From IMG/VR virus record IMGVR_UViG_2773857985_000001, positions 1 to 64,000 of that record: a stretch of DNA of 64,000 bases; one strand, written 5' to 3'. The DNA is from a virus (lineage: Duplodnaviria > Caudoviricetes). This document shows, in pieces, positions 45,328 through 64,000 of the stretch (its first letter is position 1; every line of letters starts with the position of its first letter). Made by a program: the position numbers and the translations under genes. Below the pieces are notes generated by a model. The model was not told the origin of the DNA. It did not search any database and worked only from the letters and a program-made list of their open reading frames with translations.

Positions 45328-45735
45328 TCAGATGCGCCAGCCGCCGAGGCGGCGACGCGTCTTCGGGTTGGACGTCTGCGCGGCCTGCTTCTCCAGACCC
45401 CGCAACTCGGCCTCGTCCAAGATCCCCTCGTAGTTGTCCGAGCCCATCGGGCCCGCAACCTGCGGGGCCGGGTCGGCGATGTTCCGCATGCCGCGCGGCG
45501 GCGCGTCGAACACCGGGCCGCGGGTCTGGCACAGCGTCACCGCGCTGTACCCGGACTCCGTGCACGGGCTCCCCGTGAACGGAAGCCGGGACGTGAACCG
45601 GTACTCGCCGTACAGGTGCGCGTCCTCGTAGGGCGCGGCCCGCCGGCTGATGTCGTACACGACGTAGTACGACTTCCCAAGCTCCACATCGCGGGCGAAC
45701 TTCTTCGCCTGGCTGGCACTCCACGACTTCGACAT
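45328..45735 (-). CDS. Hypothetical protein
   Basis: GGAG SD; codon bias. Confidence 0.65.
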   Translation of the reverse strand: MSKSWSASQAKKFARDVELGKSYYVVYDISRRAAPYEDAHLYGEYRFTSRLPFTGSPCTESGYSAVTLCQTRGPVFDAPPRGMRNIADPAPQVAGPMGSDNYEGILDEAELRGLEKQAAQTSNPKTRRRLGGWRI

Positions 45736-45774
45736 AGATGATCTCCGTTTCCGGTATGGGATGGTTTGCTCTCG

Positions 45775-45935
45775 CTGCTCAGGACTGCTCAGCGGGAGAA
45801 AGTGCAGGTCGGGTCTGCTCAGCCGCCTGATCAGGCGCTGCTCAGAGCAGACGCTGAGCAGGTCGTGAGCAGCAGCCTGAGCAGCTGTGACCTGCGGGTT
45901 TGTGGCCTGATCAGGGCTGAGCAGGCCCTGATCAG
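45775..45935. repeat. clt-like 8-bp repeat array (CTGCTCAG / CTGAGCAG / CTGATCAG)
   Basis: About 12 copies in 160 bp, directly downstream of the TraB-like gene. Confidence 0.75.
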
Positions 45936-45957
45936 GGGTACATACTTCGCATAGCGG

Positions 45958-48213
45958 TCACAGCAGGTGGCGGAGCCGATCACGCTTGAAGCCGCGCGGA
46001 TTCTTCTCCTCGCCGATCGGACCCAGCGTGATCGGCGACCCAGCACCCGCCTGCTTCATCAGGGCCTTGAACGCGACGGCATCCATGTCGCCGTAGGCAT
46101 CCGGGTCGTACTCCTGCAGCGCGGCAAGAAGCGGCTCGGTGATCATCCGGTCGACGTCCGCCTTCTCCATCACGTCGACCGCATCCTCGACCGCAGCCCG
46201 TGCCGGCCCGTCCGTCAGCTCCGAGCCGGCGGGCGGCTCTGCGTCGCACAGGCGCAGCAGTTGCTCCCAGGTGAGAAGCTTGACGGGCGCCGGCTTCTTG
46301 ATCTGGTCGTCCTTGTCGTACTCGGGCTCGCAGTACTCGGGGAGGTCGACGTTCTTCATCGCGTCGAGGCTGTCCTGGTCGGGCTCGACCAGGCCGGCGT
46401 CGCACCTCTCCTGCGCCAGCTTGCGCAGCGTGGCGGAGGGCGTCTCGTGGACGGCGTACTCGATCGGCTCGTCCGGTCGGCCGGGCACGCCCTGGATGTA
46501 GACGTGGCCAGCGTCCTTAGGGTCGGTGTCGGTGGCGGGAGACAGCTTGTGTGGCATCCAGCCCTCGGCGACTGCCCCGTCTCCGAAGACGGCGCGGGTG
46601 TCGCCGACCTTGCAGGGCCCGACCGCCTTGAAGGCGATCATCTGGGCGATGTTCTCGCCGAGGTACAGCTTGGTGCCGCCCTGCGAAGCGATGATCAGCG
46701 TGACGGCCTCCTTGCGGCCGACCAGCAGCAGATCGAAGGCCAGCTTCTTCGCCAGCTCGGATCCCTTGGGGAACTCGTCGAAGATGATCGTGAAGTGCGG
46801 GTGCTCCTTACTGACCTTCCACTTCTTGCCCATGCCGAGCTTCGCCCGCAGCCGGGCGCGACCCTTGGACAGCATCAGGAAGAACAGCAGGACTGCTTCG
46901 ATCTGCTCGTGGCTGCGCCCGGTGACCCGGACGGCGTCGTGGAGGTCCTCCAGACCGTCGCCGTGGGGGTCGAGGTCGATGGTGATGTTGTCGTAGCAGG
47001 CGGTGGTGATCTCACCGATGGCCTGCAGCAGGCCGGTCTTGCCGCCGCCTGACGCCGCAACGACGAGCCCCATGACCCCAGCGAACGCGGCGTCGAGGGG
47101 TTCGCCGCCCACAGAGGATCCGAGACGGCTCTTGCCCGTGATGGAGATCGACTTGGGGGCGCGATGGGGCAGCCCGGGGGCGGTGGCGAACGGGTCTCCC
47201 TCGACGAGGCGCAGGACCGCGCACGCCCGTCGCTCCAGGATGGGCTGGGGCCGGACACCGTTGGCTTTCAGGTCGAAGCGGGTCTCGAGGTCCCCGCTCT
47301 TCGCGATGATCGCTTCGGGGGTGCCTTCGCCGACGCGGACGACGCACTGCCAGCCCCACGGCTGCCGCTGCACATCGGCGACCTCGACGATCGGCACGTT
47401 CTCGGCGCGGGCGGCGAGGAGGACGCATTCAGCGAGCTGCTGCGGCGTGGACACGTTCCTGAGCGGGAACGGCTTGGCGCCTTCGTCGAGCTGCTCGACG
47501 TTCATGACGACGTGCGATCCGACGCTCATCGCTCCCCCGGCCTGCGTCGGGTCCGCCAGGAACGTGGCGGGCAGGCTGACCGGGGCCTGACCGAAAGGGG
47601 CCCCCACCTCCTTGGCCTCTTCGACGTGCGGGCGGGCCAGGAACCACCAGCCGAAGCCGCCGGCCGGGATCGACAGCAGCAGGAGGGCGGGTTCGGCGGC
47701 GATGCCGTGCAGGTAGCCGTAGCCTCCCGCGAGGACGGCGGCTACGCGGGTGGCCTTCTTCGTCCAGCGGGCACGGTCCAGTTCCCGGTTGGTGGGCGGC
47801 ATGACGGCGACCGCGGGTCCTTCCGCAGCGCGGGTTTCGACGCGGGCCTGGAGCGCGGCGAGCTCGCCCTTGAGCCGCTCGATCTGGGGGCTGGTCTCCT
47901 CGCCCTGCCGGGCGGCGTCGATGCGGGCCTGTGCGAGGCGGCTGTTGACTCGGCCGACCTGGCGCAGGAGTTCGTCATCTTGGCGCTGCGCCTGGCGACG
48001 CTTGCTGTCGACGACCTGTTCGGCGAGCTTCTGGTCGTCGATGTCGGCGGTGGCGAACCAGCCGGCGAGGCGCTGCCGGACGTTCTGCTTCTGCTCACCG
48101 TAGGCGGCCTTGGCCTGCAGCTTCACGGTGTCAATCCGCCGCTTACGGGGGATGGTGGGCGGGTTGACGGGCATGGGCGGGATCTGCTCGAAGGGTTCGG
48201 TCTCGGTGGCCAC
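45958..48213 (-). CDS. traB: FtsK/SpoIIIE-family TraB-like conjugative DNA translocase
   Basis: N-terminal TM pair, AASGGGKT Walker A, IIFDE Walker B, GRK, ASQ, C-terminal wHTH-like region ending NPRGFKRD. Confidence 0.8.
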   Translation of the reverse strand: MATETEPFEQIPPMPVNPPTIPRKRRIDTVKLQAKAAYGEQKQNVRQRLAGWFATADIDDQKLAEQVVDSKRRQAQRQDDELLRQVGRVNSRLAQARIDAARQGEETSPQIERLKGELAALQARVETRAAEGPAVAVMPPTNRELDRARWTKKATRVAAVLAGGYGYLHGIAAEPALLLLSIPAGGFGWWFLARPHVEEAKEVGAPFGQAPVSLPATFLADPTQAGGAMSVGSHVVMNVEQLDEGAKPFPLRNVSTPQQLAECVLLAARAENVPIVEVADVQRQPWGWQCVVRVGEGTPEAIIAKSGDLETRFDLKANGVRPQPILERRACAVLRLVEGDPFATAPGLPHRAPKSISITGKSRLGSSVGGEPLDAAFAGVMGLVVAASGGGKTGLLQAIGEITTACYDNITIDLDPHGDGLEDLHDAVRVTGRSHEQIEAVLLFFLMLSKGRARLRAKLGMGKKWKVSKEHPHFTIIFDEFPKGSELAKKLAFDLLLVGRKEAVTLIIASQGGTKLYLGENIAQMIAFKAVGPCKVGDTRAVFGDGAVAEGWMPHKLSPATDTDPKDAGHVYIQGVPGRPDEPIEYAVHETPSATLRKLAQERCDAGLVEPDQDSLDAMKNVDLPEYCEPEYDKDDQIKKPAPVKLLTWEQLLRLCDAEPPAGSELTDGPARAAVEDAVDVMEKADVDRMITEPLLAALQEYDPDAYGDMDAVAFKALMKQAGAGSPITLGPIGEEKNPRGFKRDRLRHLL

Positions 48214-48272
48214 AAGCTGTCCTTTCCTGGGTCGGGGGCGGGGCCCCGGGTTGGGGCCCCGCCGGGGTGTGG

Positions 48273-48866
48273 TCAGCCGAGGTTGCCGAGCATGGTGCCC
48301 AGCGATCCGACGAGCGAGTTCGTGAGCTGGCTGCCCATGGCGCCGACGACGGTCCCGGACAGGGCGATCCCGAGCAGGCCACCGAGGACCGCGTCGCCAG
48401 CCTTGAGGCCACTGTGCTTGACCTTGACGAACACGATGATCGCCAGGATGAGGATGGTGACGACGCCGACTCCGATGGCGCCTCCGCCGGCCTGGGTCTG
48501 GTACTGCTGCTGGGTTCCGGCGGGCATCTGCTGCTGCGGGTTGACGAGCTGACTGCCGCTGCCGCTGTCGGGGGTGAGGCCGTTGGTGATGCCGTCGCCG
48601 CTGCCGGGCTCGGTGTCCGCCTTGAACCCGGCGACGGTGGCGACGTGCGTGTCGGTGGCGTGGTGGCCGTAGCCGCCCATGCCGGTGATCCGCATCGTCC
48701 GCCCATCGGGCAGGGTGACGGGGGCGGTCACCGCCCGCTCGACCACGTGCTCGGAGACAGCGGCGGAAGCCGGGGCGGGGGCGGCCATCGTGATGGTGGC
48801 GGCGCCGCCGAGGACGGCGACCGCGGCACTGCCCGACACGGCGACACGACGAAGGGTGCTGGTCAT
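48273..48866 (-). CDS. Signal-peptide / two-TM membrane protein, transfer accessory
   Basis: N-terminal signal, C-terminal TM hairpin (KHSGLKAGDAVLG); directly upstream of traB. Confidence 0.65.
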   Translation of the reverse strand: MTSTLRRVAVSGSAAVAVLGGAATITMAAPAPASAAVSEHVVERAVTAPVTLPDGRTMRITGMGGYGHHATDTHVATVAGFKADTEPGSGDGITNGLTPDSGSGSQLVNPQQQMPAGTQQQYQTQAGGGAIGVGVVTILILAIIVFVKVKHSGLKAGDAVLGGLLGIALSGTVVGAMGSQLTNSLVGSLGTMLGNLG

Positions 48867-48889
48867 TTCGATCTTCTCCAGGAGGTGGG

Positions 48890-50266
48890 TTAGTTGGCGT
48901 TCGGGCGAGTGCTCTTGACTGAGTTCTGAGCTGTGATGGCGGCCTGCTTCCGGGCGGCTCCGACGTACCTCGGGGTGTCGCCAGGACGGCGTGTCGCGCG
49001 CGTCTTCAGGACCCGATTCGGACCGGGGGGCATTTGAGCAGCACGCTGCGCGTTTGTGGTCTTGCTGAGGGTGCTCACGGGGGTGCCAGTGAGGGCTGAC
49101 TGGACGCGCTTCTCGGCCTTGCTGCGGGCGGTGATGGACTCGATGGACTCGCCCGGCTCGCAGCCCTGAATGTTCCGGTAGGCGCGCGCCCAGACCTTCT
49201 CGGTCACGGTCACTTCGCCGACCGCGGCAGCGATCTTCTCGGCCTCGTCCCACACCTCGGGAAACTCCTCCGCGCGGGCACCGGCAAGGATCTCGGCCGC
49301 CTCCGCCGCAGCCTCTTCGGCGGCCTTCTTCTCGGCGGCCCGCCGCTTCTCCTCCGCGGCCTTCTCGGCGGCGATCCGCTTGGCCTCCTTCTCGGCCGCC
49401 TTCCGCTCTCCGCGGGTGGGCACGCCGTCGCGCTTGCGGATGCGGCCGTGCTCGTGGAGGTCCCACATGCCGGGGCCGGCGACGGATGCGAGGGCGGTGC
49501 CGAACGCGGTGGCTGCGTCGAACGCGCCGAGGCCGTGGACGGCGTTGATGGTGGCGGCGGTGAGGGCGCCGGCCCAGGCGACGAGCCGGTAGTGCCACTG
49601 CGGGCGGCCGTCGGTGACGGCGGCTGCGGCGCCGACGAGAGCGACGAGGGCGATGACCTCGATGAAGATCGGGGCGACGAGGAGGTACTTGGCGTTCGGG
49701 TCCCAGAACGCGGCCATCTGCACGGGCAGGGCGACGGTGGCGCACAGGGCGTAGAAGCCGAGGGCGACGCGGCGCCACCGCTTGCTGGACTTGGCGACGA
49801 CCGCCGCCTTGTCGGTCTCTGTCTGCTGCTGCTCGGCGTCCTCGCGGGCGGCGCGCTCGCGGGCCCGGTCGGCGTCGTCGCGGCGCCGCTGGTGTTCGGC
49901 GATCCGCGCCTCCGAGGCGGCCTGCTCCTCGGCGGCTTTGCGTTCGGCACGGTCGTTGGCGAGGCGGGCCTTGCGGGCGTCCTCCTCCGCCTTGGCGCGG
50001 ATGGCTTCGGCTTCGGCCTCGGCCTTGATCCGCCGCTCTTCCTTGGCGGCTTCGGCGGCGACGCGCCGTTCCTCAGCCTCGGCCCACGCCCTGGCGCGCG
50101 CTACCTCAACGTCGGCGGCTGTGGGCTCGGGGTTGGCCGGCTCGGGTTCGGGGTTGCGCTGCTCCTCGGCGGGCTCCGGCTCTGTGGCGACGGGCTGCCA
50201 GTCCCCCAGTACTTGCAGGGCCGGCGGCCGGGCGTGGCCGTTCACCTTCGGCGGGCTGGCAGTCAT
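48890..50266 (-). CDS. Coiled-coil plus four-TM protein, Spd/DUF2637-like spread protein
   Basis: Long EA-rich coiled coil, four TMs, AINAVHG and WDLHEH motifs. Confidence 0.7.
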   Translation of the reverse strand: MTASPPKVNGHARPPALQVLGDWQPVATEPEPAEEQRNPEPEPANPEPTAADVEVARARAWAEAEERRVAAEAAKEERRIKAEAEAEAIRAKAEEDARKARLANDRAERKAAEEQAASEARIAEHQRRRDDADRARERAAREDAEQQQTETDKAAVVAKSSKRWRRVALGFYALCATVALPVQMAAFWDPNAKYLLVAPIFIEVIALVALVGAAAAVTDGRPQWHYRLVAWAGALTAATINAVHGLGAFDAATAFGTALASVAGPGMWDLHEHGRIRKRDGVPTRGERKAAEKEAKRIAAEKAAEEKRRAAEKKAAEEAAAEAAEILAGARAEEFPEVWDEAEKIAAAVGEVTVTEKVWARAYRNIQGCEPGESIESITARSKAEKRVQSALTGTPVSTLSKTTNAQRAAQMPPGPNRVLKTRATRRPGDTPRYVGAARKQAAITAQNSVKSTRPNAN

Positions 50267-50286
50267 GACGGTCGAAGTCCTTTCGA

Positions 50287-50484
50287 TCAGCGGGGGTTGC
50301 GGCGGCGGGTGGAGCGGTAGCCGAACGGGCCGGGCAGGTCATAGCTGGTGGTGGTCTGGCCGGTGTTGGACCAGGTGCGCTTGGGCCCGCCCCGGGGTCC
50401 GACGGTGATCGACCAGGACCGGCGGTTCAGGTTGATGCGAACCCCGGGCAGGATCCGGAAGCTCTTACGGAACGTGACCGGCAC
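50287..50484 (-). CDS. DUF4236-like protein
   Basis: FRKSFRILPGVRINL..S.S.TVG..LPGPFGYR. Confidence 0.75.
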   Translation of the reverse strand: MPVTFRKSFRILPGVRINLNRRSWSITVGPRGGPKRTWSNTGQTTTSYDLPGPFGYRSTRRRNPR

Positions 50485-50489
50485 AGCGA

Positions 50490-50693
50490 TCACGCCTCCC
50501 GCTTGACGGGCGCGCAGTCCGGGCAGTTCGGGTCGTCGCAGAGGGTGATACGTCCGCAGCCGATGGCCTCGGACACCCGGTTGGCGGCCCGGCTGCCGCG
50601 CTCCCCGGCCACGGTGAGGCCGATCTGCTGCAGCCGACGCGCGATCCCCTCGCGCGGGTCCATCTGGTTGGTCTTCTTGGTCTTCTTGGGCAT
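50490..50693 (-). CDS. Small Cys-containing protein
   Basis: CDDPNCPDC. Confidence 0.5.
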   Translation of the reverse strand: MPKKTKKTNQMDPREGIARRLQQIGLTVAGERGSRAANRVSEAIGCGRITLCDDPNCPDCAPVKREA

Positions 50694-50971
50694 GTGATGC
50701 CTCTCGGATCGGTGATCGGATGCTGGTGCGTGCCCTGGGCCCGATTCGCTCGGGCACCGTCGCGGCTTGGCCGGGGCTGGGGTGCCGGGGCGCGGTGAGG
50801 GTTTCCGCGCCCCGGCGGTCTAGGACTGCTTTCGGCATCCGCAACGGCACGGCAAGCAGCAGCAGGTGGCTGGAGGCTTCTCGGCTTCCGTCTCGGCCAG
50901 CGCCCTCCGGGCGATCCCGGTCGCCACGAACAGGGCGCCGACGATGGCGATCGCTACCGGCAGGGCACCCA

Positions 50972-51190
50972 TCAGGTGGCCCCGGCGATGAGGTGGCTCG
51001 CCTGCCGAGCGGATTCCACGAACTGGATGCTCATCCACCGCTGGTCGACTCCGGGCCCGGTGAGGTACCAACCGTCGATACCGTCGATGACGGTGTAGTC
51101 GAGGCACCAGCCGGTGCCGGTCTCCCAGCGGGTCCCGGCGGAGGTGGTCGACCAGGTGATGCCGTTGATGGTCTGCCAGGCTTCGGTCAT
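50972..51190 (-). CDS. Hypothetical Trp-rich protein
   Basis: GGAAGG SD. Confidence 0.55.
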   Translation of the reverse strand: MTEAWQTINGITWSTTSAGTRWETGTGWCLDYTVIDGIDGWYLTGPGVDQRWMSIQFVESARQASHLIAGAT

Positions 51191-51206
51191 CGCACTTCCT
51201 TCCGGG

Positions 51207-51437
51207 TCAGGCGGCGGCGGGCTCGTTGAATCCGTCGAGTTCGGCGAGCAGGTCGGGGTCGGCGGCGAGCCGGATCGTCGCCACCCGCGCCCGGTCACCG
51301 CGCGCCACGGCGGCGGCGTAGTCGGCGAACAGGTCCGAGATCGACATGACGTGCAGGTCGGCCACGAGGGTGACGGCGCGGAGCCGGCTGCCGGTCGCGG
51401 TGTGGGCGTCGTCGGCAGAAGACAGGTACGGAGACAT
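51207..51437 (-). CDS. Hypothetical protein
   Basis: GAGGG SD. Confidence 0.55.
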   Translation of the reverse strand: MSPYLSSADDAHTATGSRLRAVTLVADLHVMSISDLFADYAAAVARGDRARVATIRLAADPDLLAELDGFNEPAAA

Positions 51438-51480
51438 AGCGGTGGCCCTCTCAGGGTCGGTAGTGCGGGGGTGGGGTGGG

Positions 51481-51684
51481 TTACAGCTGGTCGGGCTGCA
51501 GGTCGAAGAAGAGGACCGCGGCGGCCCCGTAGTGCTGGGCCTGCTGCCCGTACAGGCGCCGGAACACCTCGTGACGGGAGGCCCCGGCGGGCAGAGTGAT
51601 GACGCCGGTGTCGCCGACGGTGCCGCGGTCGGTCTGCAGGGTCAGGACCCAATGCCAGTCGGTGGTCTGGTCGGAAGCGGACAT
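51481..51684 (-). CDS. Hypothetical protein
   Basis: GAGGAG SD; HWVLTLQ..VLFFDLQP. Confidence 0.6.
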   Translation of the reverse strand: MSASDQTTDWHWVLTLQTDRGTVGDTGVITLPAGASRHEVFRRLYGQQAQHYGAAAVLFFDLQPDQL

Positions 51685-52083
51685 GCCTGAACTCCTCGGC
51701 GTGCAGTGGGGTGGGATTGGGGGCCGCGAGGGCGGGACGGGGGTGAACACCGCCCCCGCGGCGGAACCGGGTTGCTACTTGGGCCGGTTGGAGGACTGCC
51801 GGTTGGCTTCCTTCACCTTCTGGCGCATCGCTTCACGCTCGGCATCCGTCACGGGGTCACCCCCTGCGGGTGCGGGCGCGGCGGGTGGATCGGCAGCGGC
51901 TCCTTCGCCCTCTCGTGCTCGTCGCTCACGACTCGGCCCTCACGACGAGCAGCCGGTCGGACGACAGATCCATGACCACCGTCGCCGGGGTACCGGAGGC
52001 GGTCAGCTCGGCGGCCTTCTCCTCCGCCGGCCACGACCCACGCGGGTTTCCCGCCGGGAAGTCCGCCAGGATCTCGCGGGCGC

Positions 52084-52290
52084 TCACGACGCCTCCACCA
52101 GGTGCAGCATTCCCGTGGCAGTCAAGGCGCGGACCGTGTCGGCCATCGTGTCCTGCACCAGGGCCAGACTCTCAAACTCGGCGCCCGTCATCGGGCGGTC
52201 CAGCGTGGTCAGCTCCCGGTAGCGGGCGGCGGCCACCTCGTAGCGGGTGACGGCGCGCTGCACATCCCGGGTGATCACGGAGGCCATCAC
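52084..52290 (-). CDS. Small helical protein
   Basis: Coupling; resembles 52287-52580. Confidence 0.6.
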   Translation of the reverse strand: MMASVITRDVQRAVTRYEVAAARYRELTTLDRPMTGAEFESLALVQDTMADTVRALTATGMLHLVEAS

Positions 52291-52580
52291 GCACCGCCGA
52301 TCAGCTTGAGCTGGCCGGCCTTGGCGAGAACCGACCGCGCGGCGGCCATGACGTCCTCGGCGTCGGCCAGTGACCGGGCCTGCAGGTCGGTCATCCGACC
52401 GGACGCGGCGACACCCGCCAGCTGCGCGGCATGCTCGGCGGCCGTCTCGTACTCGGCGACCGCCTGAACCAGCGGGAAGTGCGGCAGGGCCTTGGCCAGC
52501 GCGGCGGCGGCCTTCGGCGACAGCGGGGCGGTACCCATGTTCTCGGCGCGCTCGGGCGCCGGTACGATCTGCGTAGCCAC
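52287..52580 (-). CDS. Small helical protein
   Basis: AAGGAG SD; first gene after a promoter. Confidence 0.65.
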   Translation of the reverse strand: MATQIVPAPERAENMGTAPLSPKAAAALAKALPHFPLVQAVAEYETAAEHAAQLAGVAASGRMTDLQARSLADAEDVMAAARSVLAKAGQLKLIGGA

Positions 52581-52715
52581 AGGGTCTCCTTCACAGAACC
52601 TGGTGGTTAGGGCCGGTGCGTGCGCGATGTAGGAGTCGCAAGCGCCCGGCCCGTCTTGTGTTGTGTGCCGTCCGCGGACTGGGTCCGGTAGGAGTGGACG
52701 ACAAGCACCAGCCTG

Positions 52716-52776
52716 CTCAAGCCGCGACTTGAGGGCCGATGTGAAAGACCGTAGAGGGCCCGCCGGGGCGAGTCAA
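52716..52776 (-). promoter_or_regulatory. HrdB-like promoter with downstream palindromic operator, driving the transfer operon
   Basis: TTGACT-N17-TACGGT (52776-52748); CTCAAG-N6-CTTGAG at 52716-52733. Confidence 0.7.
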
Positions 52777-52840
52777 GCACCCAACGAAAGTTCTCCATAC
52801 GAGCCTTGAGGACCCGTCGGATCACCCGTACCCTCACGTC

Positions 52841-53095
52841 ATGGCCGACTCCCCCGACACCCCATTCGCCCCCTACGACGAGCAACTGCGCGCGATCACA
52901 GACCTCCCCGAACGGTGGAAGGCCTACGTCGACCGGGCGAAGTACCTGGAGCGGGAACTGGAGTCGTTCCGCAAACGCCAACGCCAGGAGATCGCCACCG
53001 GACTCAAGGCGCAGGGCAAGACGTGGAAGGAAGTCGGAGAAATCATGGGGGGCGTCACGTACCAACGCGCCCACCAATTCGGCAGAAGCGAATGA
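52841..53095 (+). CDS. Small HTH repressor-like protein, leaderless
   Basis: KTWKEVGEIMGGVTYQRAHQ HTH; TTGAGG-N17-TACCCT ends 6 nt before ATG. Confidence 0.8.
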   Translation: MADSPDTPFAPYDEQLRAITDLPERWKAYVDRAKYLERELESFRKRQRQEIATGLKAQGKTWKEVGEIMGGVTYQRAHQFGRSE

Positions 53096-53104
53096 CCGGA
53101 TCTT

Positions 53105-53201
53105 CATGAAGCCAAGTCTCCGCGCGCGGACACACCCACACCATGAAGATCCCATGCAGCACCATGCAGTGACCTGAAGCGGAACATGCAGCCACATGCA
53201 G
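53105..53201 (+). repeat. Helically phased CATG(C/A)AG heptamer array
   Basis: Copies at 53105, 53142, 53153, 53163, 53173 (variant), 53185, 53195. Confidence 0.7.
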
Positions 53202-53244
53202 AACCGCCACACGAGGGCCCACAAACGCGGCCAAGGAGCCGATA

Positions 53245-53883
53245 GTGGCAGACGTCCACCAGTGGACCGGGGAGAAAGCCGCCCGGCTCCAAGACGCATT
53301 CGAAATGACCCAGGAAGAGTTCGCCGGAAAGCTCGGCGTCTCGGTACGCAGCGTCGCCTCATGGCGCGCCAACCCGAGCATGGTGCCGCAGCCGGAAACG
53401 CAACGCATCCTGGACACGACCTTGGGATTGGCAGGTGATGCGGTGCGCCGGCGGTTCATTCACCTGGCGCGGGCAGCGGCTCCCCAGCCGGCAGCGCAGG
53501 CGTTGCGGGTGGCGATCGCCGTCGTCCGCCGCGGCGGCAACGTGCTGCTCGTGTGCAGGCAGGACGGCGACGACATCACCTGGCAATTCCCGGCCGGAAT
53601 CGTCAAGCCCGGCGGGAACGCGCCGAAAGTGGCGGTGCGGGAAACGCTGGACGAGACCGGCGTCCACTGCATGGTCCGCGAACACCTGGGCGAACGCCTG
53701 CATCCGGTGACGCGCGCATTCTGCGACTACTTCATTTGCGACTACGTGCACGGTGAGGCAGTCAATGGGGATGCCTCCGAGAACGTTGCCGTGGCTTGGG
53801 CTCCGATAGCGGGGCTCTCTCGTTTCATCCCCACCGACCGGATCTATCCGCCGATCTTGACCGCCTTGGAGGCGACCGTATGA
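53245..53883 (+). CDS. XRE-HTH plus Nudix hydrolase fusion
   Basis: MTQEEFAGKLGVSVRSVASW HTH; WQFPAG..AVRETLDETGV Nudix box. Confidence 0.9.
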   Translation: MADVHQWTGEKAARLQDAFEMTQEEFAGKLGVSVRSVASWRANPSMVPQPETQRILDTTLGLAGDAVRRRFIHLARAAAPQPAAQALRVAIAVVRRGGNVLLVCRQDGDDITWQFPAGIVKPGGNAPKVAVRETLDETGVHCMVREHLGERLHPVTRAFCDYFICDYVHGEAVNGDASENVAVAWAPIAGLSRFIPTDRIYPPILTALEATV

Positions 53884-54290
53884 CCGAGACCATCACCGAC
53901 AAGCCGGGCATTTCTGCCGCGATCATCGTCCGGGACGGCCGGGTGCTGATGGTGCGCCGCGCCGTGAAGGAGGGCGAGCTGATGTGGCAGTTCCCCGCGG
54001 GTGGCATCGAGGCCGGCGAGTCGCCGGAGGAGGCGGCGGTGCGGGAGACGCTGGAGGAGACGGCGCTCACGGTGAAGGCGGTGCGGCTGCTGGGGCAGCG
54101 GGTGCATCCGAAGACGGGCCGGGAGATGTCGTACACGGCGTGCGATGTCGTGGATGGCGAGGCTCGGGTGGCGGACGACGAGGAGCTGGACGCGGTCGCC
54201 TGGGTCACCCATGGCGAGATCGCCGACTACGTGCCCTACGGCCTGTTCGAGCCCGTCCAGGAGTACCTGGATGACGTCCTGCCGCACTGA
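53880..54290 (+). CDS. Nudix hydrolase
   Basis: WQFPAGGIEAGESPEEAAVRETLEETAL; ATGA coupling. Confidence 0.92.
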   Translation: MTETITDKPGISAAIIVRDGRVLMVRRAVKEGELMWQFPAGGIEAGESPEEAAVRETLEETALTVKAVRLLGQRVHPKTGREMSYTACDVVDGEARVADDEELDAVAWVTHGEIADYVPYGLFEPVQEYLDDVLPH

Positions 54291-57127: not shown

Positions 57128-57366
57128 GCTGCGGCTTCTCTCTGCTGGTCGGGGATGTGGATTTGGTGGATGCCGATTTCGCCGACGGCCAGGGCGATGG
57201 CGACGGCTTGGGCTCGGTCGGTGGCGCCGAGCCGGCGGTAGGCGGCTGACAGGATTTCGGCGACGGAGTGGACGGTGACGCCGCGCCAGGCGGCGATGGT
57301 GCTGTTGGGGTTGCCGTTCGCGGCGAGGGTGAGGACTTCCCGCTGCCGGGCGGTCAGCTGCCTCAC
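57124..57366 (-). CDS. LuxR-type HTH protein
   Basis: LTARQREVLTLAANGNPNSTIA..LGATDRAQAVA. Confidence 0.85.
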   Translation of the reverse strand: MRQLTARQREVLTLAANGNPNSTIAAWRGVTVHSVAEILSAAYRRLGATDRAQAVAIALAVGEIGIHQIHIPDQQREAAA

Positions 57367-57551
57367 GGCACTCTCCGCGGCCGGTGCTGGGTGTGGACTT
57401 TGCCGCGGGTGTCCAACATTCCGTCGGCGTGGGCGAGGAGGAGTAGGGCGCGGCGGAGGACGTCGCGGGGCCGGTCTCCGCGGCGGCCGTAGGCGGCGAG
57501 GATCGCAGCCGAGGTGTCGTCGGGCTGCCAGTGCAGCGGTCGGCGGGGCAT
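57363..57551 (-). CDS. Hypothetical protein
   Basis: GGAGG SD. Confidence 0.55.
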   Translation of the reverse strand: MPRRPLHWQPDDTSAAILAAYGRRGDRPRDVLRRALLLLAHADGMLDTRGKVHTQHRPRRVP

Positions 57552-57614
57552 GGTGGCCTCCAGATCGGGGTGCGGGTGGGGGCGTGCTGGTTCGGCACGC
57601 CCCTTCGCCGTCGG

Positions 57615-58214
57615 TCAGTCGAGAGCGATGATGTGGTCGCCCTCGACGCAGTGCGAGGCGATGCATCGGCCGGCCTTCGCGCGGGGTAGCGCGTCCAGGT
57701 GCTGCGCGCGGATCAGGTTGTGGCGGGCGTCGGCGAGGGCGTTGTGGGCGCCGTCCGGCTGCTCGGGCAGCGCCGGATCGCCGAGCCGTGCGGCTTCCTG
57801 CTTCAGGTCGTTGGTCCACATCGGGACGCCGTCGGGCAGGTCGATCATCCGGCCGAAGAGCTGCGCCAGGGCGACGTGGTCGTAGGCCCCGTACCAGGCC
57901 CACAGCTGGACGTCCGGGCCTGCGGCGCGCACGAAGTCGGTGACGAGACGGGCGATCTGCGCGCGGGGGCGGACGTCGGGGTGGTCGAGGTCGAGGCGGT
58001 CCGTGCCGCGGACGCCGGGCGGGTTCTTCCGGATCGGGAGGGACGGCCAGACGTTGTCGCGGAGCCACGGGTGCTGGCGGACGGCGGACTGGTCGAACTC
58101 GGAGCTGACGGCGTACAGTTCGGCGCCGTCTTCGCGGACCATGCCGATGCTGATGAGGTCGATGGTGGTGCCGTTCTCGTGGAACTCGGTGTCGTAGTAG
58201 ATCCGCATGGTCAC
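57615..58214 (-). CDS. DEDDh 3'-5' exonuclease (RNase AS-like)
   Basis: YYDTEF, LISIG, AYDHV, HNALADAR motifs. Confidence 0.88.
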   Translation of the reverse strand: MTMRIYYDTEFHENGTTIDLISIGMVREDGAELYAVSSEFDQSAVRQHPWLRDNVWPSLPIRKNPPGVRGTDRLDLDHPDVRPRAQIARLVTDFVRAAGPDVQLWAWYGAYDHVALAQLFGRMIDLPDGVPMWTNDLKQEAARLGDPALPEQPDGAHNALADARHNLIRAQHLDALPRAKAGRCIASHCVEGDHIIALD

Positions 58215-58729
58215 TTCTCCGTGGTCTGTTCGGCGGGCGGGAGGGTGTCGTTGAGGGCGAGGTCCAGGCCTTCCCAGGTCGGGCCTTGGGATGCGGGTGC
58301 TTCGGTGCGGGCGCGTTCTCGGAGGCCGCGTACCCGGGCGATCGCGGTCTCGGCGCGGTCGGCGCGCTGCCGCTGCTGCTCGTACTCATCGGGAGTGGGG
58401 GCGCAGTCGCCGCGCCCGCATGCCGGGCAGTAGCCAGGCGCCTCGGCCGCTGCCGGGGCGGGTCCGGCGGCGGTCCTGATGCGGGCCGCGAGTTCGGTGT
58501 GGTTGGCGGTCCAGGGGGCGCCTGCGTGGATGACGGCGGCGAGGTGGTGGACGCGGACGAGCGCGGCCTCGGCGCGTTCCAGGTCGGGCACGATCGCCTG
58601 TACGTGCCGCTTGTTGCCCGCGGCCACGTGCTCCAGCGTCTTGATCCGGCGGTGCGCAGCGTCGAGTTGGTCGTAGAGGGCGTCCAACTGGTCGCTGGTG
58701 AGGTCGTCGAGGGGGATGCGGTCGGTCAT
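58211..58729 (-). CDS. Hypothetical phage protein
   Basis: LTSDQLDALYD; CPAC. Confidence 0.65.
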   Translation of the reverse strand: MTDRIPLDDLTSDQLDALYDQLDAAHRRIKTLEHVAAGNKRHVQAIVPDLERAEAALVRVHHLAAVIHAGAPWTANHTELAARIRTAAGPAPAAAEAPGYCPACGRGDCAPTPDEYEQQRQRADRAETAIARVRGLRERARTEAPASQGPTWEGLDLALNDTLPPAEQTTEK

Positions 58730-58979
58730 GCTGCGCTCCGGTGGTCGGGGTCGGTGTTGAGGAGGGCCGTGTCGCTGGCGGCGGCGTCGTGGAGGCGTTC
58801 ATGGAGATCGGCTCGCCGGTCACCCGCGTCCTGGGCCGACGCGGCGCCCCATAGGAGGAAGGCGGCGCCGACGAGACCGGGCACGGCGTACCACGGGTGC
58901 CAGGTGGCGGCGATGGCGGCGCTGAGGGTGGAGATGCCGGCGGCGAGGTGGCAGGCGGCAGCCGTCCGCCGAGCCGGGG

Positions 58980-59336
58980 TCACGGGGTGCCGTTGATCTG
59001 GCGGGCCACGGCGAGGGCGGCGTCCGGGATGGCGATGCGCCCTTCGTCGAGCGCGGCGGCCTGCCACTCCAGCCAGTCGGCGAGGGCGAGGCCGACGGCG
59101 GGGTCCATGGTCGCGGCGTAGTCGCCGACGGGCGCTGACACGTAGGCGGGCGGGCGTCGGCCACCTCGGAGGAGGGGCTTCACGCCGACGGCCCAGAGGG
59201 TGGTGAATGTGGAGTCGGGCTGGTCGGGGAAGTGGCGGCTGGCCTTCCAGGCGGTGTTGCCGCTGTCGTCGGCGGCTGCGGTGGCGAGTTGGCGGATCTT
59301 GTCGGCGGCGGCGCGGAGTTCGTCGGCGGGGGTCAT
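58980..59336 (-). CDS. Hypothetical phage protein
   Basis: ELRAAADK..YAATMDPAVGLALADWL. Confidence 0.65.
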   Translation of the reverse strand: MTPADELRAAADKIRQLATAAADDSGNTAWKASRHFPDQPDSTFTTLWAVGVKPLLRGGRRPPAYVSAPVGDYAATMDPAVGLALADWLEWQAAALDEGRIAIPDAALAVARQINGTP

Positions 59337-59639
59337 GGGGTGCCTTCCGGGTGGGGCCCCGGCCGGTCGGGCCGGGGCGGTGGGTTCAGGCGGCGTGGTC
59401 GTAGCCGGGTGGGCGGCGTGCGTAGCGGCGTGCTGTGTGGCCTCTCAGGGCCCAGGAGGGGCGCGGACGACGCCCGGGACGCACGAGCCGCCGGGAGGCC
59501 GCCCAGAGGCCGCACAGGGCCGCGTGGACGGTGAGCAGCACGACGGCCAGGAGCAGGGCGACGGCGACCGCGCCGACGAGCAGCCACACGCCTGCCGCGG
59601 CGAGCAGCGTCCACAGCGCGTCCAGCGCCTCGGCGACGA

Positions 59640-60716
59640 TCACGACGCCCCGCCCCGCCGCGCCCCGGCGGCGGTGGCGCGCTTGCAGCCCCGGCAGTCC
59701 ACCGGCATGTGGCTCATCGGAGTACCGCCGCGCCCCACGCGCTCCCCGCAGGCAGTCCAGAACCGCTGCTTGTCGTTGACGACGAAGCGCGCGGTGGCGT
59801 GCACCCGGCGGTCGCCGGGGCGCTTGTGGCGTCCGGGCCATTCCGTGGTGGTCGCCCACTCCGGAGGCGCGACGGGCGGAGCGGACAGTGCCTTCGCCAT
59901 GCGTCGGCACTTGGCGAGCTTCTCCTCCTCGGTCTCCGGCCGCGCCCACTCCGGCGTCTCGGTGGCTGCCGTCTCGTCGGCCATGCGGCGCAGCGCGGCG
60001 CGAACGTCGGTGCCGGTGCGGAACGTGCCGTTGGCAACCGGGTACATGGCGACGGTGTCGGACCAGTGGAAGCCATGTTCGTCGGTGTGCGCGGTGCGCT
60101 CGTGCTGCGCGGCCCGGATGCACAGGCGAGCCGCGTCCTCGCCGGGGCCGTGGTACTGCGCGGAGCACGTCGCGGCGGGCGCCGTGTCGGTGTCGTGGCC
60201 GGTGGCCGCGGGCAGCACGGCCGCGAGGCGCAGCAGGCTGCACGACTCACCCCGCTCGATCCGGTCGGCGTCCGTCTCCAGCGTCGCCGCCGCGTCGTCG
60301 GCCCATTCGCCGCTGTAGGTGCCGCGGACGAACGAGGCGCAGGCGCGGACGAGCGCGGCCGGGTCGACGGGCGCGGTGCTCGTGCGGGACGCGTCGTAGG
60401 CGGCCAGCAGCTCCTCCGGCGACCCGTAGCCGAGCGGCGGGACACGGGTGCCGTCGATCGCCGCCAGCAGCTGCTCGCGCACGGCGGTCGGGTCGGTAGG
60501 CGGGGCCGGGACGGCAGCGGGGCACTGGTCAGCCGGGTGCGACTGCCGCATCGTCTTCGCCGCCGACCAGTGATGCTGATCGCACGCCTCCGTCACTCCG
60601 TCCTCGACGACGAGCCCGCACGGGGCCTTCGGGCAGGGGCAGGCGGCTTCGATGTCGGCGGACATGCCGCGGAACGACCGGCCGATGTGCTGGCCGGTGG
60701 TGGTGGGTTCGGTCAT
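59640..60716 (-). CDS. Mosaic multi-Cys/His protein
   Basis: AGGAGG SD; several small C/H motifs. Confidence 0.65.
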
Positions 60717-60792
60717 CGGGTTCCTCCTGGTGGGTGGGTAGGGTTCGGGCACCGGCCGCCCGCGCACTTCGACTGCGCAGGCGGCCGGCTTG

Positions 60793-61236
60793 CTACTCGG
60801 TCGGGTTGGCCAGCTCCAGCAGCACCGCGGCGTGGCAGTGGTCGGGCTGGCCGTCGGCGGGGAGCGGGCACCAGCACATGAGGTCCCGGCCCGCCAGTTC
60901 GGTACGCGCGGCCTCGGCGAGGCTCGGCTTCAGGACGAGCCAGTCACGGAACATCGCCACGGCCTGCTCGCGGGTGGCGTCCTGCACGAGGTGCGAGGTG
61001 GTGGTGCCGTCGGGGTGCCGGAAGCCGTGCCACTGGCCGGACGTCTTGCCGAGGCGTCCCTCTCGCTCCCACTCCGAGCCGTCCAGGGCGGGCATGCGGA
61101 TCTGGGTGCAGGGGTTGCCCCAGCGGGTGCCGCGGCCGACGTAGACGGCGCCGTCGGGCTTGCGCCAGCCCTTCGTGCGGCGGCGCTGGACCCGCCGGGG
61201 CCCGGCCTGCTGCTGGTCGGTGGGGTGGTCGGTCAT
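60793..61236 (-). CDS. DUF4326-like protein
   Basis: [28 protein letters not shown]. Confidence 0.85.
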
Positions 61237-61292
61237 GGTCGCTCCTGGTGGTGTGGGTGTCGGATTATGTGCGGTTTCGACGCCACCGGTCC

Positions 61293-61709
61293 TCAAGCGG
61301 AACCGGCAGGCAGCATCGGGTCGTCACGCCGCGTGTAGGGCTGCGGGACGGGGCCCGGCGAGTGAAACCAGGTGACGGGGACCGCGTCGGGCGTGGTCTC
61401 GGCGGCGGCCGTGACCGTCCATCCGCCGTCCGGACGCCGGGTGAACAGGGCGTGGCCGCAGTCGAGCCAGTAGTAGGCGTTCCGCAGATCCGCAGTGGTG
61501 TCATCGAGCAGGTTGGGCTGCCCGCAGACGCGCCGGTAGTACTGGTCGAGCGCCTCAAGGGCCTGCCGCTTGTCGCCGGTGAGGGCGATCGCAGCACCGG
61601 TCTCACCGAGGGAGGCGACGAGGACGCCGTCGAAGCAGTCCTCCATGTCGTTCGGGCCGGGGGTGAAGACGCGGCCCGGGGTGAGGGCGTCGTGGGTGGT
61701 GTTGGTCAT
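61293..61709 (-). CDS. Hypothetical protein
   Basis: AGGAG SD. Confidence 0.65.
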   Translation of the reverse strand: MTNTTHDALTPGRVFTPGPNDMEDCFDGVLVASLGETGAAIALTGDKRQALEALDQYYRRVCGQPNLLDDTTADLRNAYYWLDCGHALFTRRPDGGWTVTAAAETTPDAVPVTWFHSPGPVPQPYTRRDDPMLPAGSA

Positions 61710-61779
61710 CGGGGTCTCCTGGGCGGGTAGGGTCCGGCGGAGACCCGGGCGCGGTTCGAGCGCGCCCGGGTCGCCGCGT

Positions 61780-62058
61780 TCACGGGATGGGGTGGGTCGC
61801 CGCGAGGCAGGCCGCGACGATCACGACGGTGGGCGTCGAGCCGGGGAACTCGATGACCGCGCCGTTCGGGCAGTCCGGGCCGGAGTCGTCGGACTCGTTG
61901 GTCACGGCCCAAACGGCGCCGGACGGGTGCCGCAGGATGCTCAGCGGCATGTCCTCGTCGGCGATCCATCCGGCCGCCTCCAGTGCCTCCAGGACGTCGA
62001 GGCGGCCGTACCAATCCCCGGACGCGGGCGGGGTGATGATCAGGTGCAGGTCGGTCAT
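61780..62058 (-). CDS. Hypothetical protein
   Basis: AAGGAG SD. Confidence 0.6.
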   Translation of the reverse strand: MTDLHLIITPPASGDWYGRLDVLEALEAAGWIADEDMPLSILRHPSGAVWAVTNESDDSGPDCPNGAVIEFPGSTPTVVIVAACLAATHPIP

Positions 62059-62081
62059 TGCTTCTCCTTCGGGTTGGCTGG

Positions 62082-63988: not shown

Positions 63989-64000
63989 GCGGCGTCCTTC

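What the first reader, a model, noticed from the sequence alone, without database searches (positions are those of the whole stretch)
45775..54290. Tailed phage carrying a Streptomyces TraB/clt conjugation module (candidate conjugative phage)
Seen: within the early region of a complete-looking siphovirus lies a minus-strand operon with its own promoter (52748-52776). It encodes a Spd/DUF2637-like coiled-coil membrane protein, a TM accessory protein and a FtsK-family ATPase with N-terminal TMs, directly followed by an 8-bp repeat array. A divergent small HTH repressor and two Nudix genes flank it. Established: Streptomyces plasmids and AICEs (pSVH1, pSAM2, pIJ101) move dsDNA using a single TraB that binds 8-bp repeats in an adjacent clt, helped by Spd proteins; the plasmid-phage pZL12 is a partial precedent. 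Inference: this genome may spread both as virions and by hypha-to-hypha conjugation, bypassing receptor-level resistance.
Basis: partly seen in the sequence, partly recalled or inferred. Interest (0 to 1): 0.88.

Follow-up and report, generated by a model that had tools for sequence, protein, structure and literature searches.

The report
Prophage with plasmid-type DNA-transfer module
A complete tailed prophage of a Streptomyces-like bacterium carries, as a stable part of its early genes, a DNA pump, its probable docking site and a pore-type membrane protein of the kind Streptomyces plasmids use to push double-stranded DNA through hyphal walls, so the phage may move its genome from cell to cell without virions, which is not yet tested.

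Summary
The window is a chromosomal prophage with a full siphovirus morphogenesis set. Its early region has a minus-strand operon with three main genes: a coiled-coil/4-TM protein related to DUF2637/SpdB2, a signal-peptide/TM protein, and a 751-aa FtsK-fold ATPase. A unique, dyad-symmetric array of 8-mers (CTGMKCAG) follows the ATPase stop codon.

The module is not a recent AICE insertion. It is syntenic in 35 related loci, phage genes flank it on both sides, and TerL lies nearby in 5 of 5 genomes checked.

The same ATPase-plus-array unit occurs on Streptomyces plasmids (pFP1 and a 24-kb linear plasmid), where it is the only FtsK-like gene. Across loci the repeated word changes together with one residue of the ATPase's C-terminal winged-helix-like domain.

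I read it as a TraB/clt/SpdB2-type dsDNA translocation module owned by a phage lineage. Three cautions apply:
- The ATPase does not cluster with pIJ101 Tra, AICE TraBs or chromosomal FtsK.
- Pfam models miss both the ATPase and the Spd-like protein.
- No transfer has been shown.

Spreading across septal cross-walls is at least as likely as conjugation between mycelia. Phage SpdB2 homologues, the plasmid-phage pZL12 and FtsK-like genes in lytic phages are precedents, so this is a new variant of a known kind.

The parts
45328..45735 (-). 135-aa gene after the array (no family); the usual but not constant downstream neighbour
   Evidence: Homolog present in 27 of 35 related loci. Other loci have unrelated first genes after the array.
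45768..45957 (-). About 190-bp cis element directly after the ATPase stop: 10 exact (more degenerate) 8-mers CTGMKCAG at 10-12 bp spacing, with its two halves in opposite orientation
   Evidence: ssDNA fold -52.2 kcal/mol, z -5.9. No Rfam match. Same geometry in related loci.
45804..45810 (.). Conserved inverted-repeat arm GCAGGTC (+ strand), partner of 45889-45895
   Evidence: The left arm (45889-45895) is kept in 35 of 36 loci; this arm, its partner 85-89 bp away, in at least 28 of 36. Also in pFP1 and CP109436.
45889..45895 (.). Conserved inverted-repeat arm GACCTGC (+ strand)
   Evidence: (I1).
45958..48213 (-). 751-aa FtsK-fold dsDNA translocase: coiled coil 35-131, helical hairpin 142-193, alpha/beta motor 236-620 (Walker A AASGGGKT, Walker B DE), C-terminal winged-helix-like domain 670-750
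   Evidence: PHROG 12531 at 3.7e-66. Profile vs PDB: FtsK 2ius 1.5e-23. AF2 pLDDT 86.9. Foldseek: FtsK 3.7e-13, TcpA 1.1e-12. C-domain model pLDDT 85.7; only weak winged-helix hits.
48273..48866 (-). 197-aa protein with N-terminal signal-like segment and two C-terminal TM segments
   Evidence: Homolog in 21 of 35 related loci. No family hit.
48890..50266 (-). 458-aa SpdB2/DUF2637-like protein: charged coiled-coil N-half, TM core about 165-270, C-terminal domain
   Evidence: hhalign vs DUF2637 set: 93.3%, E 2.7e-7, 90 columns. BLASTP vs pFP1 DUF2637 protein E 6e-5. Sources name close homologs 'SpdB2 protein' or 'DUF2637'. Present in 28 of 35 loci. Pfam itself gives no hit.
50490..52580 (-). Upstream small genes of the same operon (67, about 50 with one TM, 76, 89, 53, 68 and 97 aa), functions unknown
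   Evidence: Patchy conservation, 2-13 of 35 loci. phrog_29738 for the 67-aa protein.
52748..52776 (-). Promoter-like TTGACT-17-TACGGT facing the operon
   Evidence: Read; not flagged by the consensus scan.
52841..53095 (+). Divergent 84-aa gene, no family
   Evidence: Present in 2 of 35 loci.
53245..53883 (+). Xre-type HTH (weak) fused to a Nudix hydrolase
   Evidence: Present in 14 of 35 loci.
53796..54290 (+). Second Nudix hydrolase
   Evidence: NUDIX 3.3e-25. Present in 14 of 35 loci.

Best explanation
The operon is a TraB/clt/SpdB2-type double-stranded-DNA translocation module that belongs to the phage itself.

Mechanism (inferred):
- The membrane-anchored FtsK-fold ATPase assembles on the array next to its own gene, reading the repeated 8-mers with its C-terminal winged-helix-like domain.
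- The two oppositely oriented halves would load motors of opposite polarity, so that a loop of the circular phage replicon can be pumped.
- The DUF2637/SpdB2-like pore-type protein and small membrane proteins give passage through membrane and wall.

The most likely use is to move phage DNA across septal cross-walls into neighbouring hyphal compartments after infection or induction. Transfer into another mycelium is possible with the same parts.

Shown: fold, anatomy, conservation in phages and plasmids, uniqueness of the site, and co-variation of word and protein. Inferred: binding, pumping, direction and biological use.
For: 1. FtsK motor. Profile of 101 family representatives vs PDB: FtsK 2ius 1.5e-23, EccC 4nh0 1.1e-22, TcpA 6o1w 1e-16. 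Foldseek of the pLDDT 86.9 model: FtsK 3.7e-13 (TM 0.67 on the target), pCW3 coupling protein TcpA 1.1e-12. BLASTP to pIJ101 Tra: 24% over 217 aa through Walker A/B, E 1e-6.

2. Cis site. 10 of 13 window matches fall in 161 bp, and it is the only place in 8.58 Mb with neighbouring word pairs.

3. Unit conserved. All 36 loci (window, 5 IMG/VR, 30 genomes) have an array starting at a fixed distance from the stop. The conserved GCAGGTC arm is present in 35 of 36. The first gene after the array varies.

4. Plasmids. pFP1 (39 kb) and NZ_CP109436 (24 kb) have DUF2637 gene, small ORFs, this ATPase, then the same array architecture with other words. Neither has another PF01580-like gene. pFP1 has a GntR gene upstream, as traR/korA do in plasmids.

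5. Co-variation. On a motor-domain tree of 35 rows the word class changes 15 times and a wing residue 12 times. Independent pairs: Q with CTGCTA in 5 of 5; S/P/G with TGCTCGG in 3 of 3; T with TCAG 5.7 the same way, 0 opposite and 1.3 unchanged of 7 (median p 0.03).

6. The C-terminal domain also occurs on a protein that passes PF01580 (P0329).

7. SpdB2-like neighbour.

8. Integral to phages. Synteny in IMG/VR relatives, including a 61-kb record with terminal repeats and a different TerL. TerL lies 5-20 kb downstream in 5 of 5 genomes. Phage genes conserved to the right.

9. Precedents from papers (passages): clt of pWTY27 is 16 bp of traA plus the adjacent 159 bp and is bound by TraA. TraB reads 8-bp repeats through a C-terminal winged helix. 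[quoted passage not shown]
Against: - No Pfam or NCBIfam model hits the ATPase. PF01580 and PF10935 do not reach the window in a six-frame search at E<=1, while they find canonical AICE pairs elsewhere in the same genome.
- On the tree with references the family is not sister to pIJ101 Tra or the two AICE TraBs. Deep nodes are unresolved and the method was 'quick'.
- The C-terminal model has no Foldseek hit at E<=0.001; the best is Rex 2dt5 at E 0.13, probability 0.96.
- The co-variation could be plain linkage. The C-terminal coding part and the array are under 100 bp apart and appear to move as one cassette.
- Four loci with the window-type wing have CTGATCGG or degenerate arrays.
- Word classes were assigned by me.
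- Known clt repeats are described as direct; here the halves are inverted.
- Homologues in lytic 130-kb phages have no array and no DUF2637 neighbour, so the motor has at least one other use.
- Nudix genes are present in only 14 of 35 loci.
- I could not read the pFP1 paper, so I did not verify that this gene is pFP1's functional tra.
Confidence: 0.55

Rival explanations
1. True conjugative phage. The same module moves the excised phage genome from a lysogen's hypha into a different, recipient mycelium, giving a virion-independent route that bypasses receptor resistance.
For: All parts that Streptomyces plasmids need are present: a TraB-like motor plus a cis site (passages). The unit is shared with plasmids. 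Nudix and an Xre-type regulator sit beside the module, as in AICEs, where Pif gives conjugal immunity. pZL12 is cited as a plasmid-phage with a tra locus (its own paper was not held).
Against: Nothing in the sequence separates inter-mycelial transfer from intra-mycelial spreading. No excision or replication control of the AICE type (GntR KorSA, Pra, RepSA) was seen near the module. Nudix is present in only 14 of 35 loci. Transfer of a replicating lytic-competent genome may kill the recipient rather than lysogenise it. No experiment exists.
Confidence: 0.22
2. Replication or segregation element. The array is an origin (iterons in a hairpin, as in RepAM-type AICEs or pWTY27) or a centromere, and the ATPase segregates or resolves phage or plasmid DNA, for instance into spore compartments, without crossing to other cells.
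For: Identical 8-bp repeats able to form a hairpin mark the RepAM origin of pMEA300 (passage). RepA of pWTY27 binds a long inverted repeat in its iteron. The array folds strongly as ssDNA, z -5.9. The 10-12 bp phasing is also typical of iterons and centromeres. FtsK proper is a segregation motor.
Against: The partner that is always adjacent is the FtsK-fold ATPase, not a Rep or ParB-type protein. The downstream gene varies. The phage's Prim-Pol gene is 17 kb away. pFP1 has a separate iteron-like non-coding stretch next to a 500-aa HTH_36 protein. The region is not AT-rich. A DUF2637 pore-type protein is the constant companion (28 of 35 loci).
Confidence: 0.13
3. Host-takeover or exclusion function. 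The ATPase and membrane proteins manipulate host septation or development, or exclude other DNA, and the array is merely an operator or terminator between two genes.
For: PHROGs files the family under 'moron, auxiliary metabolic gene and host takeover'. A paper on Streptomyces phages mentions FtsK-like genes alongside host development (passage). Lytic phages carry a homologue without an array.
Against: An operator or terminator role does not explain about 12 phased copies, the fixed architecture shared with plasmids, or the change of word together with the ATPase C-terminus.
Confidence: 0.07
4. An AICE or plasmid fragment recently inserted into this one prophage, with no role for the phage.
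For: The module is of plasmid/AICE type. The genome holds canonical AICE pairs elsewhere.
Against: The module is syntenic in 35 related loci at 56-87% ATPase identity and sits beside TerL in 5 of 5 genomes. There are no flanking att-like repeats, no second integrase, and GC is 0.704 against 0.69. Only one copy of the ATPase exists in the genome.
Confidence: 0.03

Closest known systems
TraB/clt of Streptomyces conjugative plasmids and AICEs (pSVH1, pIJ101, pJV1, pWTY27)
   Same: Membrane-associated FtsK-fold hexamer-type ATPase with a C-terminal winged-helix-like domain. The cis site of repeated 7-9-mers lies right after the tra gene: pWTY27 clt is the last 16 bp of traA plus 159 bp. An Spd membrane protein is encoded beside it.
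   Different: It sits in a separate deep clade from pIJ101 Tra and two AICE TraBs. It is not hit by PF01580. The repeats form two inverted halves around a conserved GCAGGTCA/TGACCTGC pair. It resides in a tailed prophage.
Transfer region of plasmid pFP1 (NC_006912) and linear plasmid NZ_CP109436
   Same: Same ATPase family (about 32-33% identity). Same order of DUF2637 gene, small ORFs and ATPase. Same array architecture including the conserved inverted pair. The ATPase is the only FtsK-like gene on each plasmid.
   Different: Other repeated words (CTCTAC; TGATCGGC). pFP1's protein has an extra N-terminal FtsK-gamma domain. These are plasmids without virion genes. I could not read the paper that mapped pFP1's conjugation locus.
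SpdB2 homologues of actinophages phiC31 and VWB (cited in Thoma et al. 2015, mBio)
   Same: A phage-borne relative of the plasmid spread protein. The authors already suggest help in spreading phage DNA (passage).
   Different: As far as that passage says, those phages have the Spd homologue only. Here the motor and its cis array come with it. I did not examine the phiC31 or VWB sequences.
Plasmid-phage pZL12 / pSLE1
   Same: A Streptomyces element with both virion genes and a tra locus (cited).
   Different: pZL12 is an autonomous plasmid with parAB, whereas this one is integrated. pZL12 did not appear by name among the 48 plasmid records that match the ATPase. Its own paper was not held, so details are recalled or second-hand.
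FtsK-like DNA translocase of lytic 130-kb Streptomyces phages (Karimac, Wofford and others)
   Same: Same ATPase clade: about 36% identity over the motor in 89 records, grouped with pFP1. It also has an N-terminal TM segment and a helix-rich C-terminus.
   Different: No array (the next CDS abuts), no DUF2637 neighbour, and a lytic genome.

Membership tests
FtsK/SpoIIIE-type dsDNA translocases (FtsK-HerA superfamily) | RecA-like motor with Walker A and B, FtsK alpha/beta fold | tested here: met
   K392, D479 and E480 are invariant or nearly so in 101 sequences. Profile vs PDB: FtsK 1.5e-23. Foldseek: FtsK 3.7e-13 over about 420 columns.
FtsK/SpoIIIE-type dsDNA translocases (FtsK-HerA superfamily) | Match to Pfam PF01580 above its cut-off | tested here: not met
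   No hit at E<=10 or in a six-frame search at E<=1. Distant family members do hit: P0379 at 37.7 bits, P0329 at 33.8 bits.
Streptomyces TraB (conjugative translocase) | N-terminal membrane association | tested here: inconclusive
   The model shows a helical hairpin at 142-193. The hydropathy scan at 1.5 finds no segment.
Streptomyces TraB (conjugative translocase) | [quoted passage not shown] | tested here: inconclusive
   The model (pLDDT 85.7) has H-strand-H-H-wing order. All top Foldseek hits are winged-helix DNA binders, but the best E is 0.13. A wing residue co-varies with the word, and linkage is not excluded.
Streptomyces TraB (conjugative translocase) | Groups with characterised TraB proteins in a tree | tested here: not met
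   Quick ML tree of 39 motor domains. The family is nested (99*) with plasmid and lytic-phage homologues, apart from pIJ101 Tra, own-genome AICE TraBs and FtsK. Those TraBs are not one clade either.
Streptomyces TraB (conjugative translocase) | Required for transfer and pock formation | not testable with these tools
   Needs matings.
[quoted passage not shown] | Cluster of repeated 7-9-mers on the element, next to or near tra | tested here: met
   10 exact 8-mers in 161 bp directly after the stop, unique in the genome, present in 36 of 36 loci.
[quoted passage not shown] | Bound by the cognate TraB and needed in cis for transfer | not testable with these tools
   Only indirect: word and wing-residue co-variation.
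SpdB2 / DUF2637 | Match to PF10935 | tested here: not met
   No hit.
SpdB2 / DUF2637 | Homology of the TM core; coiled coil + TM block + C-domain layout | tested here: met
   hhalign 93.3%, E 2.7e-7 over 90 columns. BLASTP to the pFP1 DUF2637 protein E 6e-5. The layout fits the SpdB2 description by sequence and hydropathy.
AICE | Integrase + plasmid-type Rep + Tra as a 9-24 kb self-contained element with att sites | tested here: not met
   The module lies inside a prophage of more than 60 kb, with no flanking repeats over 14 bp. No RepSA/RepAM was seen. The only recombinase found is a 201-aa resolvase-type protein at 2778-3383.
Pif-type Nudix (conjugal immunity) | Nudix hydrolase encoded beside the regulator of the transfer genes | tested here: inconclusive
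   Two Nudix genes are present, one fused to a weak Xre HTH, but only in 14 of 35 loci. Immunity is not testable.
Phage-plasmid (pZL12 type) | Autonomous maintenance (rep + parAB) | not tested
   The element is integrated in a chromosomal contig. No ParA/ParB turned up among the proteins scanned, but not every gene was scanned.

The most novel reading that the evidence does not exclude
A widespread lineage of temperate Streptomyces siphophages has two transmission routes. One is virions. The other is TraB-style pumping of naked double-stranded phage DNA from a lysogen into neighbouring hyphae, including other mycelia. Specificity is set by an exchangeable cassette: the winged helix plus its 8-mer array. 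That cassette is traded between phages and plasmids, which keeps co-resident elements from mobilising each other.
Probability: 0.22. Interest if true: 0.85.

Novelty: new variant of a known kind. Interest (0 to 1): 0.62.

Why it matters
In mycelial bacteria a virion infects one compartment, and how phage DNA reaches the rest of the colony is an open question. A phage-owned motor with its own loading site makes that question directly testable by deleting the array, the motor or the pore protein.

The finding also blurs the line between prophage, AICE and plasmid. The same motor-plus-site cassette sits on conjugative plasmids and on phages with unrelated virion modules. If transfer between mycelia occurs, receptor-based resistance would not stop the spread of such prophages, and prophage counts in Streptomyces genomes would partly reflect conjugation.

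The matched sets of winged-helix variants and 8-mer words (T with TCAG, S/P with TCGG, Q with CTA) form a natural series for studying how FtsK-type gamma-like domains read DNA.

Tried and rejected
- Close phage relatives by DNA: megablast of 9-30 kb found only short pieces (4 records, at most 7% of the query) and 40-56 kb found none.
- Prophage ends: a search with the right flank in 20 relatives gave only short chance-like matches. No tRNA is present. No large serine integrase was shown, because the 437-aa ORF 1474-2787 has no hits. The ends therefore stay undefined, and the prophage runs past the right window edge.
- Sequence-only PDB search with the single ATPase: 0 hits.
- Expression: no RNA holder listed.
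- Rfam: no match in 44-56 kb.
- Consensus promoter scan: none found.
- Complex prediction was not used: six motor copies exceed the size limit, and a coiled-coil/membrane pair seemed unlikely to give a usable verdict.
- Literature: searches found no paper describing a TraB-like motor with a clt-like array in an integrated tailed Streptomyces prophage. That claim rests on those six searches only, and subscription papers are not searched. Supplementary files were not consulted.
- Papers wanted but not held: Zhang 2008 on pFP1/pFP11, Zhong 2010 on pZL12, Vogelmann 2011 on TraB. What I say of them is second-hand, or recalled.
- Samy prophage paper: passages only; no mention of a translocase.

Full report
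WHAT IS THERE

The window is part of a chromosomal contig of an 8.58-Mb, about 70% GC genome. All close protein relatives are from Streptomyces.

Minus-strand genes from 6.6 to 27.3 kb give a complete siphovirus set (PHROGs):
- endolysin and tail proteins;
- a 1565-aa tape measure and the major tail protein;
- major head, scaffold and protease;
- portal and large terminase.

Early genes follow on the same strand. A Prim-Pol gene lies at 28014-28649.

The prophage does not end at 56 kb as the GC step suggested. The methylase at 62279-63988 has a 79% identical counterpart at the same relative place in a related provirus. The finding therefore lies well inside the phage, and the phage runs past the window's right edge. 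I could not locate the ends or the integrase.

THE MODULE

GC3 frame analysis gives a leftward operon from about 52580 to 45328. Its large genes are:
- a 458-aa protein (48890-50266);
- a 197-aa signal/TM protein (48273-48866);
- a 751-aa ATPase (45958-48213).

The ATPase has no Pfam, NCBIfam or PDB sequence hit on its own. It does match PHROG 12531, 'FtsK/SpoIIIE-like', at 3.7e-66. An exhaustive search found only 234 cluster representatives at E<=0.001 among 1.84 billion proteins.

A profile of 101 of these representatives hits solved structures:
- FtsK motor domains at 1.5e-23;
- EccC at 1.1e-22;
- the pCW3 coupling protein TcpA at 1e-16.

The AlphaFold model (pLDDT 86.9) has five parts:
- a long coiled coil (35-131);
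- a helical hairpin (142-193);
- a disordered linker;
- an alpha/beta motor (236-620);
- a compact C-terminal domain (670-750).

Foldseek puts the motor on FtsK (3.7e-13) and TcpA. The C-terminal domain modelled alone (pLDDT 85.7) has winged-helix topology. Its top structural neighbours are all winged-helix DNA binders, but none is significant (best E 0.13). The same domain occurs alone and on other ATPases, one of which passes PF01580.

The 458-aa protein has a charged coiled-coil half, a hydrophobic block and a C-terminal domain. Pfam does not hit it. Three results link it to DUF2637/SpdB2:
- Its family profile matches a set of DUF2637 proteins at 93.3% probability, E 2.7e-7, over the TM core.
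- It aligns with the DUF2637 protein of pFP1 at E 6e-5.
- Sources name close homologues 'SpdB2 protein' or 'DUF2637'.

THE ARRAY

The 222-bp gap after the ATPase stop holds 10 exact CTGMKCAG words in 161 bp. The whole 64-kb window has 13. Neighbouring pairs of the word occur nowhere else in the genome.

The words are 10-12 bp apart, so they face one side of the helix. In gene sense the first half reads CTGCTCAG and the second half CTGAGCAG, with palindromic CTGATCAG in both. An inverted pair, GCAGGTCA and TGACCTGC 85 bp apart, divides outer from inner repeats. The strand folds strongly as ssDNA, z -5.9. No Rfam family matches.

CONSERVATION

At least 300 full-length homologues (61-100% identical among the 120 listed) exist, all those named from Streptomyces, and none carries a Pfam domain. 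I fetched 5 IMG/VR relatives and 30 genome loci. All 36 loci, the window included, have an array beginning at a fixed distance from the stop codon. The left inverted arm is present in 35 of 36. Its partner lies 85-89 bp on in at least 28 of 36.

Counts among the 35 related loci:

| Gene | Loci with a homolog |
|---|---|
| Spd-like 458-aa protein | 28 of 35 |
| TM protein (197 aa) | 21 of 35 |
| 135-aa downstream gene | 27 of 35 |
| Each Nudix gene | 14 of 35 |
| 84-aa 'repressor' | 2 of 35 |

The first gene after the array is of several unrelated kinds, so the array goes with the ATPase and not with the downstream gene.

The phage context is general:
- A large-terminase gene lies 5-20 kb downstream of the ATPase in 5 of 5 genomes checked.
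- One relative is a 61-kb record with terminal repeats. It has the module but a terminase and capsid unrelated to the window's.

There are no att-like repeats around the module and its GC is ordinary.

LINK TO PLASMIDS

The ATPase family is on 48 Streptomyces or Kitasatospora plasmid records. In pFP1 (39 kb) and in a 24-kb linear plasmid the order is DUF2637 gene, small ORFs, ATPase. The ATPase is followed by the same architecture, including CGCAGGTCA...TGACCTGCG. The repeated words differ: CTCTAC/GTAGAG in pFP1 and TGATCGGC/GCCGATCA in the linear plasmid.

Neither plasmid has another FtsK-like gene. pFP1 has a GntR gene upstream. It also has a separate iteron-like stretch beside an HTH_36 protein, a likelier replication locus. 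The title of Zhang et al. 2008 says its conjugation locus was mapped, but I could not read the paper.

For pWTY27 the clt is the last 16 bp of traA plus the next 159 bp, contains direct and inverted repeats, and is bound by TraA (passages and section 10). That geometry is the one seen here.

CO-VARIATION

The repeated word differs among loci:
- CTG[CA]TCAG in 20 loci;
- TGCTCGG in 6;
- CTGCTA[GCT], with or without CTGGTCA, in 5;
- CTGATCGG or degenerate in 4;
- CCCGGAC in 1, whose whole C-terminus differs.

A residue in the predicted wing (xX[LI]G...NPRG) follows the word: T with TCAG, S/P/G with TCGG, Q with CTA. On a tree of the motor domain alone the word class changes 15 times and the residue 12 times. 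The C-terminus and array therefore travel as a cassette.

Independent pairs agree:
- Q with CTA: 5 of 5;
- S/P/G with TCGG: 3 of 3;
- T with TCAG: 5.7 the same way, 0 opposite and 1.3 unchanged, of 7.

Cautions:
- The two features are under 100 bp apart, so linkage alone could produce the pattern.
- I assigned the classes myself.
- The tree is a quick one.
- Four loci break the rule.

WHERE IT FAILS AS 'TraB'

In a tree with references the prophage family is a clade (100*) inside a larger one (99*) that also holds the plasmid homologues and the FtsK-like protein of the lytic phage Karimac. pIJ101 Tra, two AICE TraBs from the same genome and chromosomal FtsK lie outside it, and the deep order is unresolved. 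So it works like a TraB by anatomy, but I do not file it in the clade of characterised TraBs. The lytic-phage homologues have no array and no Spd neighbour, so the motor has other uses too.

KNOWN CONTEXT

- Thoma et al. 2015 (passages): TraB reads 8-bp repeats in clt. TraB with SpdB3, Spd79 and SpdB2 spreads plasmids across cross-walls. SpdB2 forms pores. [quoted passage not shown]
- te Poele et al. 2008 (passages): most AICEs carry a Tra, a Nudix hydrolase and a GntR or Xre regulator, and Pif gives conjugal immunity.
- pZL12 is cited as a plasmid-phage with a tra locus.
- FtsK-like genes in Streptomyces phages are noted in passing.
- Six searches found no description of a motor-plus-array-plus-SpdB2 module in integrated tailed prophages.

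VERDICT

This is a phage-owned, plasmid-type dsDNA translocation module with a probable cognate loading site, and it is a new variant of a known kind. Whether it serves spreading inside a mycelium, which I think more likely, or conjugation between mycelia (about 0.2) needs the bench tests listed under decisive next steps.

Noticed in passing
window 2778-3383 (-) and 1474-2787 (-): A 201-aa resolvase-type serine recombinase (PF00239, 1.7e-27) sits next to a 437-aa ORF with no family hit. No large serine or tyrosine integrase was identified in the window, so the prophage's integration gene and ends remain unknown.
   Followed up: partly
window 57300-64000 (-): A higher-GC block (0.73) holds an Rv2179c-like exoribonuclease, DUF4326 and a C5 cytosine methylase. 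It is conserved in position in a related provirus, so it belongs to the same prophage, which runs past the window end.
   Followed up: partly
window 667-1335 (-): A GmrSD_C restriction-endonuclease domain protein lies left of the recombinase and may be a defence gene at the prophage edge.
   Followed up: no
window 45804-45810 and 45889-45895; also L031 (pFP1) and L032: The inverted pair GCAGGTCA/TGACCTGC, 85 bp apart, is invariant across prophages and plasmids while the surrounding 8-mers change. Its reader is unknown.
   Followed up: partly
L042 and L048 (same contig, about 90 kb apart): One genome contig carries two copies of the module with the same C-terminus and array words, which suggests two related prophages or a duplication.
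   Followed up: no
L057:11593-11800: One relative has a wholly different ATPase C-terminus and an array of CCCGGAC/GTCCGGG words without the conserved inverted pair. Its motor is sister to a window-type locus, so this is a clean cassette swap.
   Followed up: partly
L063 (phage Karimac) 3548-5359: The lytic 130-kb phage homologue keeps an N-terminal TM segment and a helix-rich C-terminus. It sits among tRNA genes with no array and no DUF2637 neighbour, and its role is unexplained.
   Followed up: partly
own genome C19:96283-97674, C30:36774-38105, C32:54576-59365: The same genome holds two canonical AICE-type pairs (PF01580 TraB followed directly by a DUF2637 gene). It also has a third, weakly scoring pair on C32 that groups with P0354/P0376 in the tree.
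   Followed up: partly
L008:4921-5150 (pFP1): pFP1's ATPase open frame begins with a canonical FtsK gamma domain (PF09397, 2.6e-17) at its N-terminus, in addition to the C-terminal helix-rich domain. This placement is unusual.
   Followed up: no
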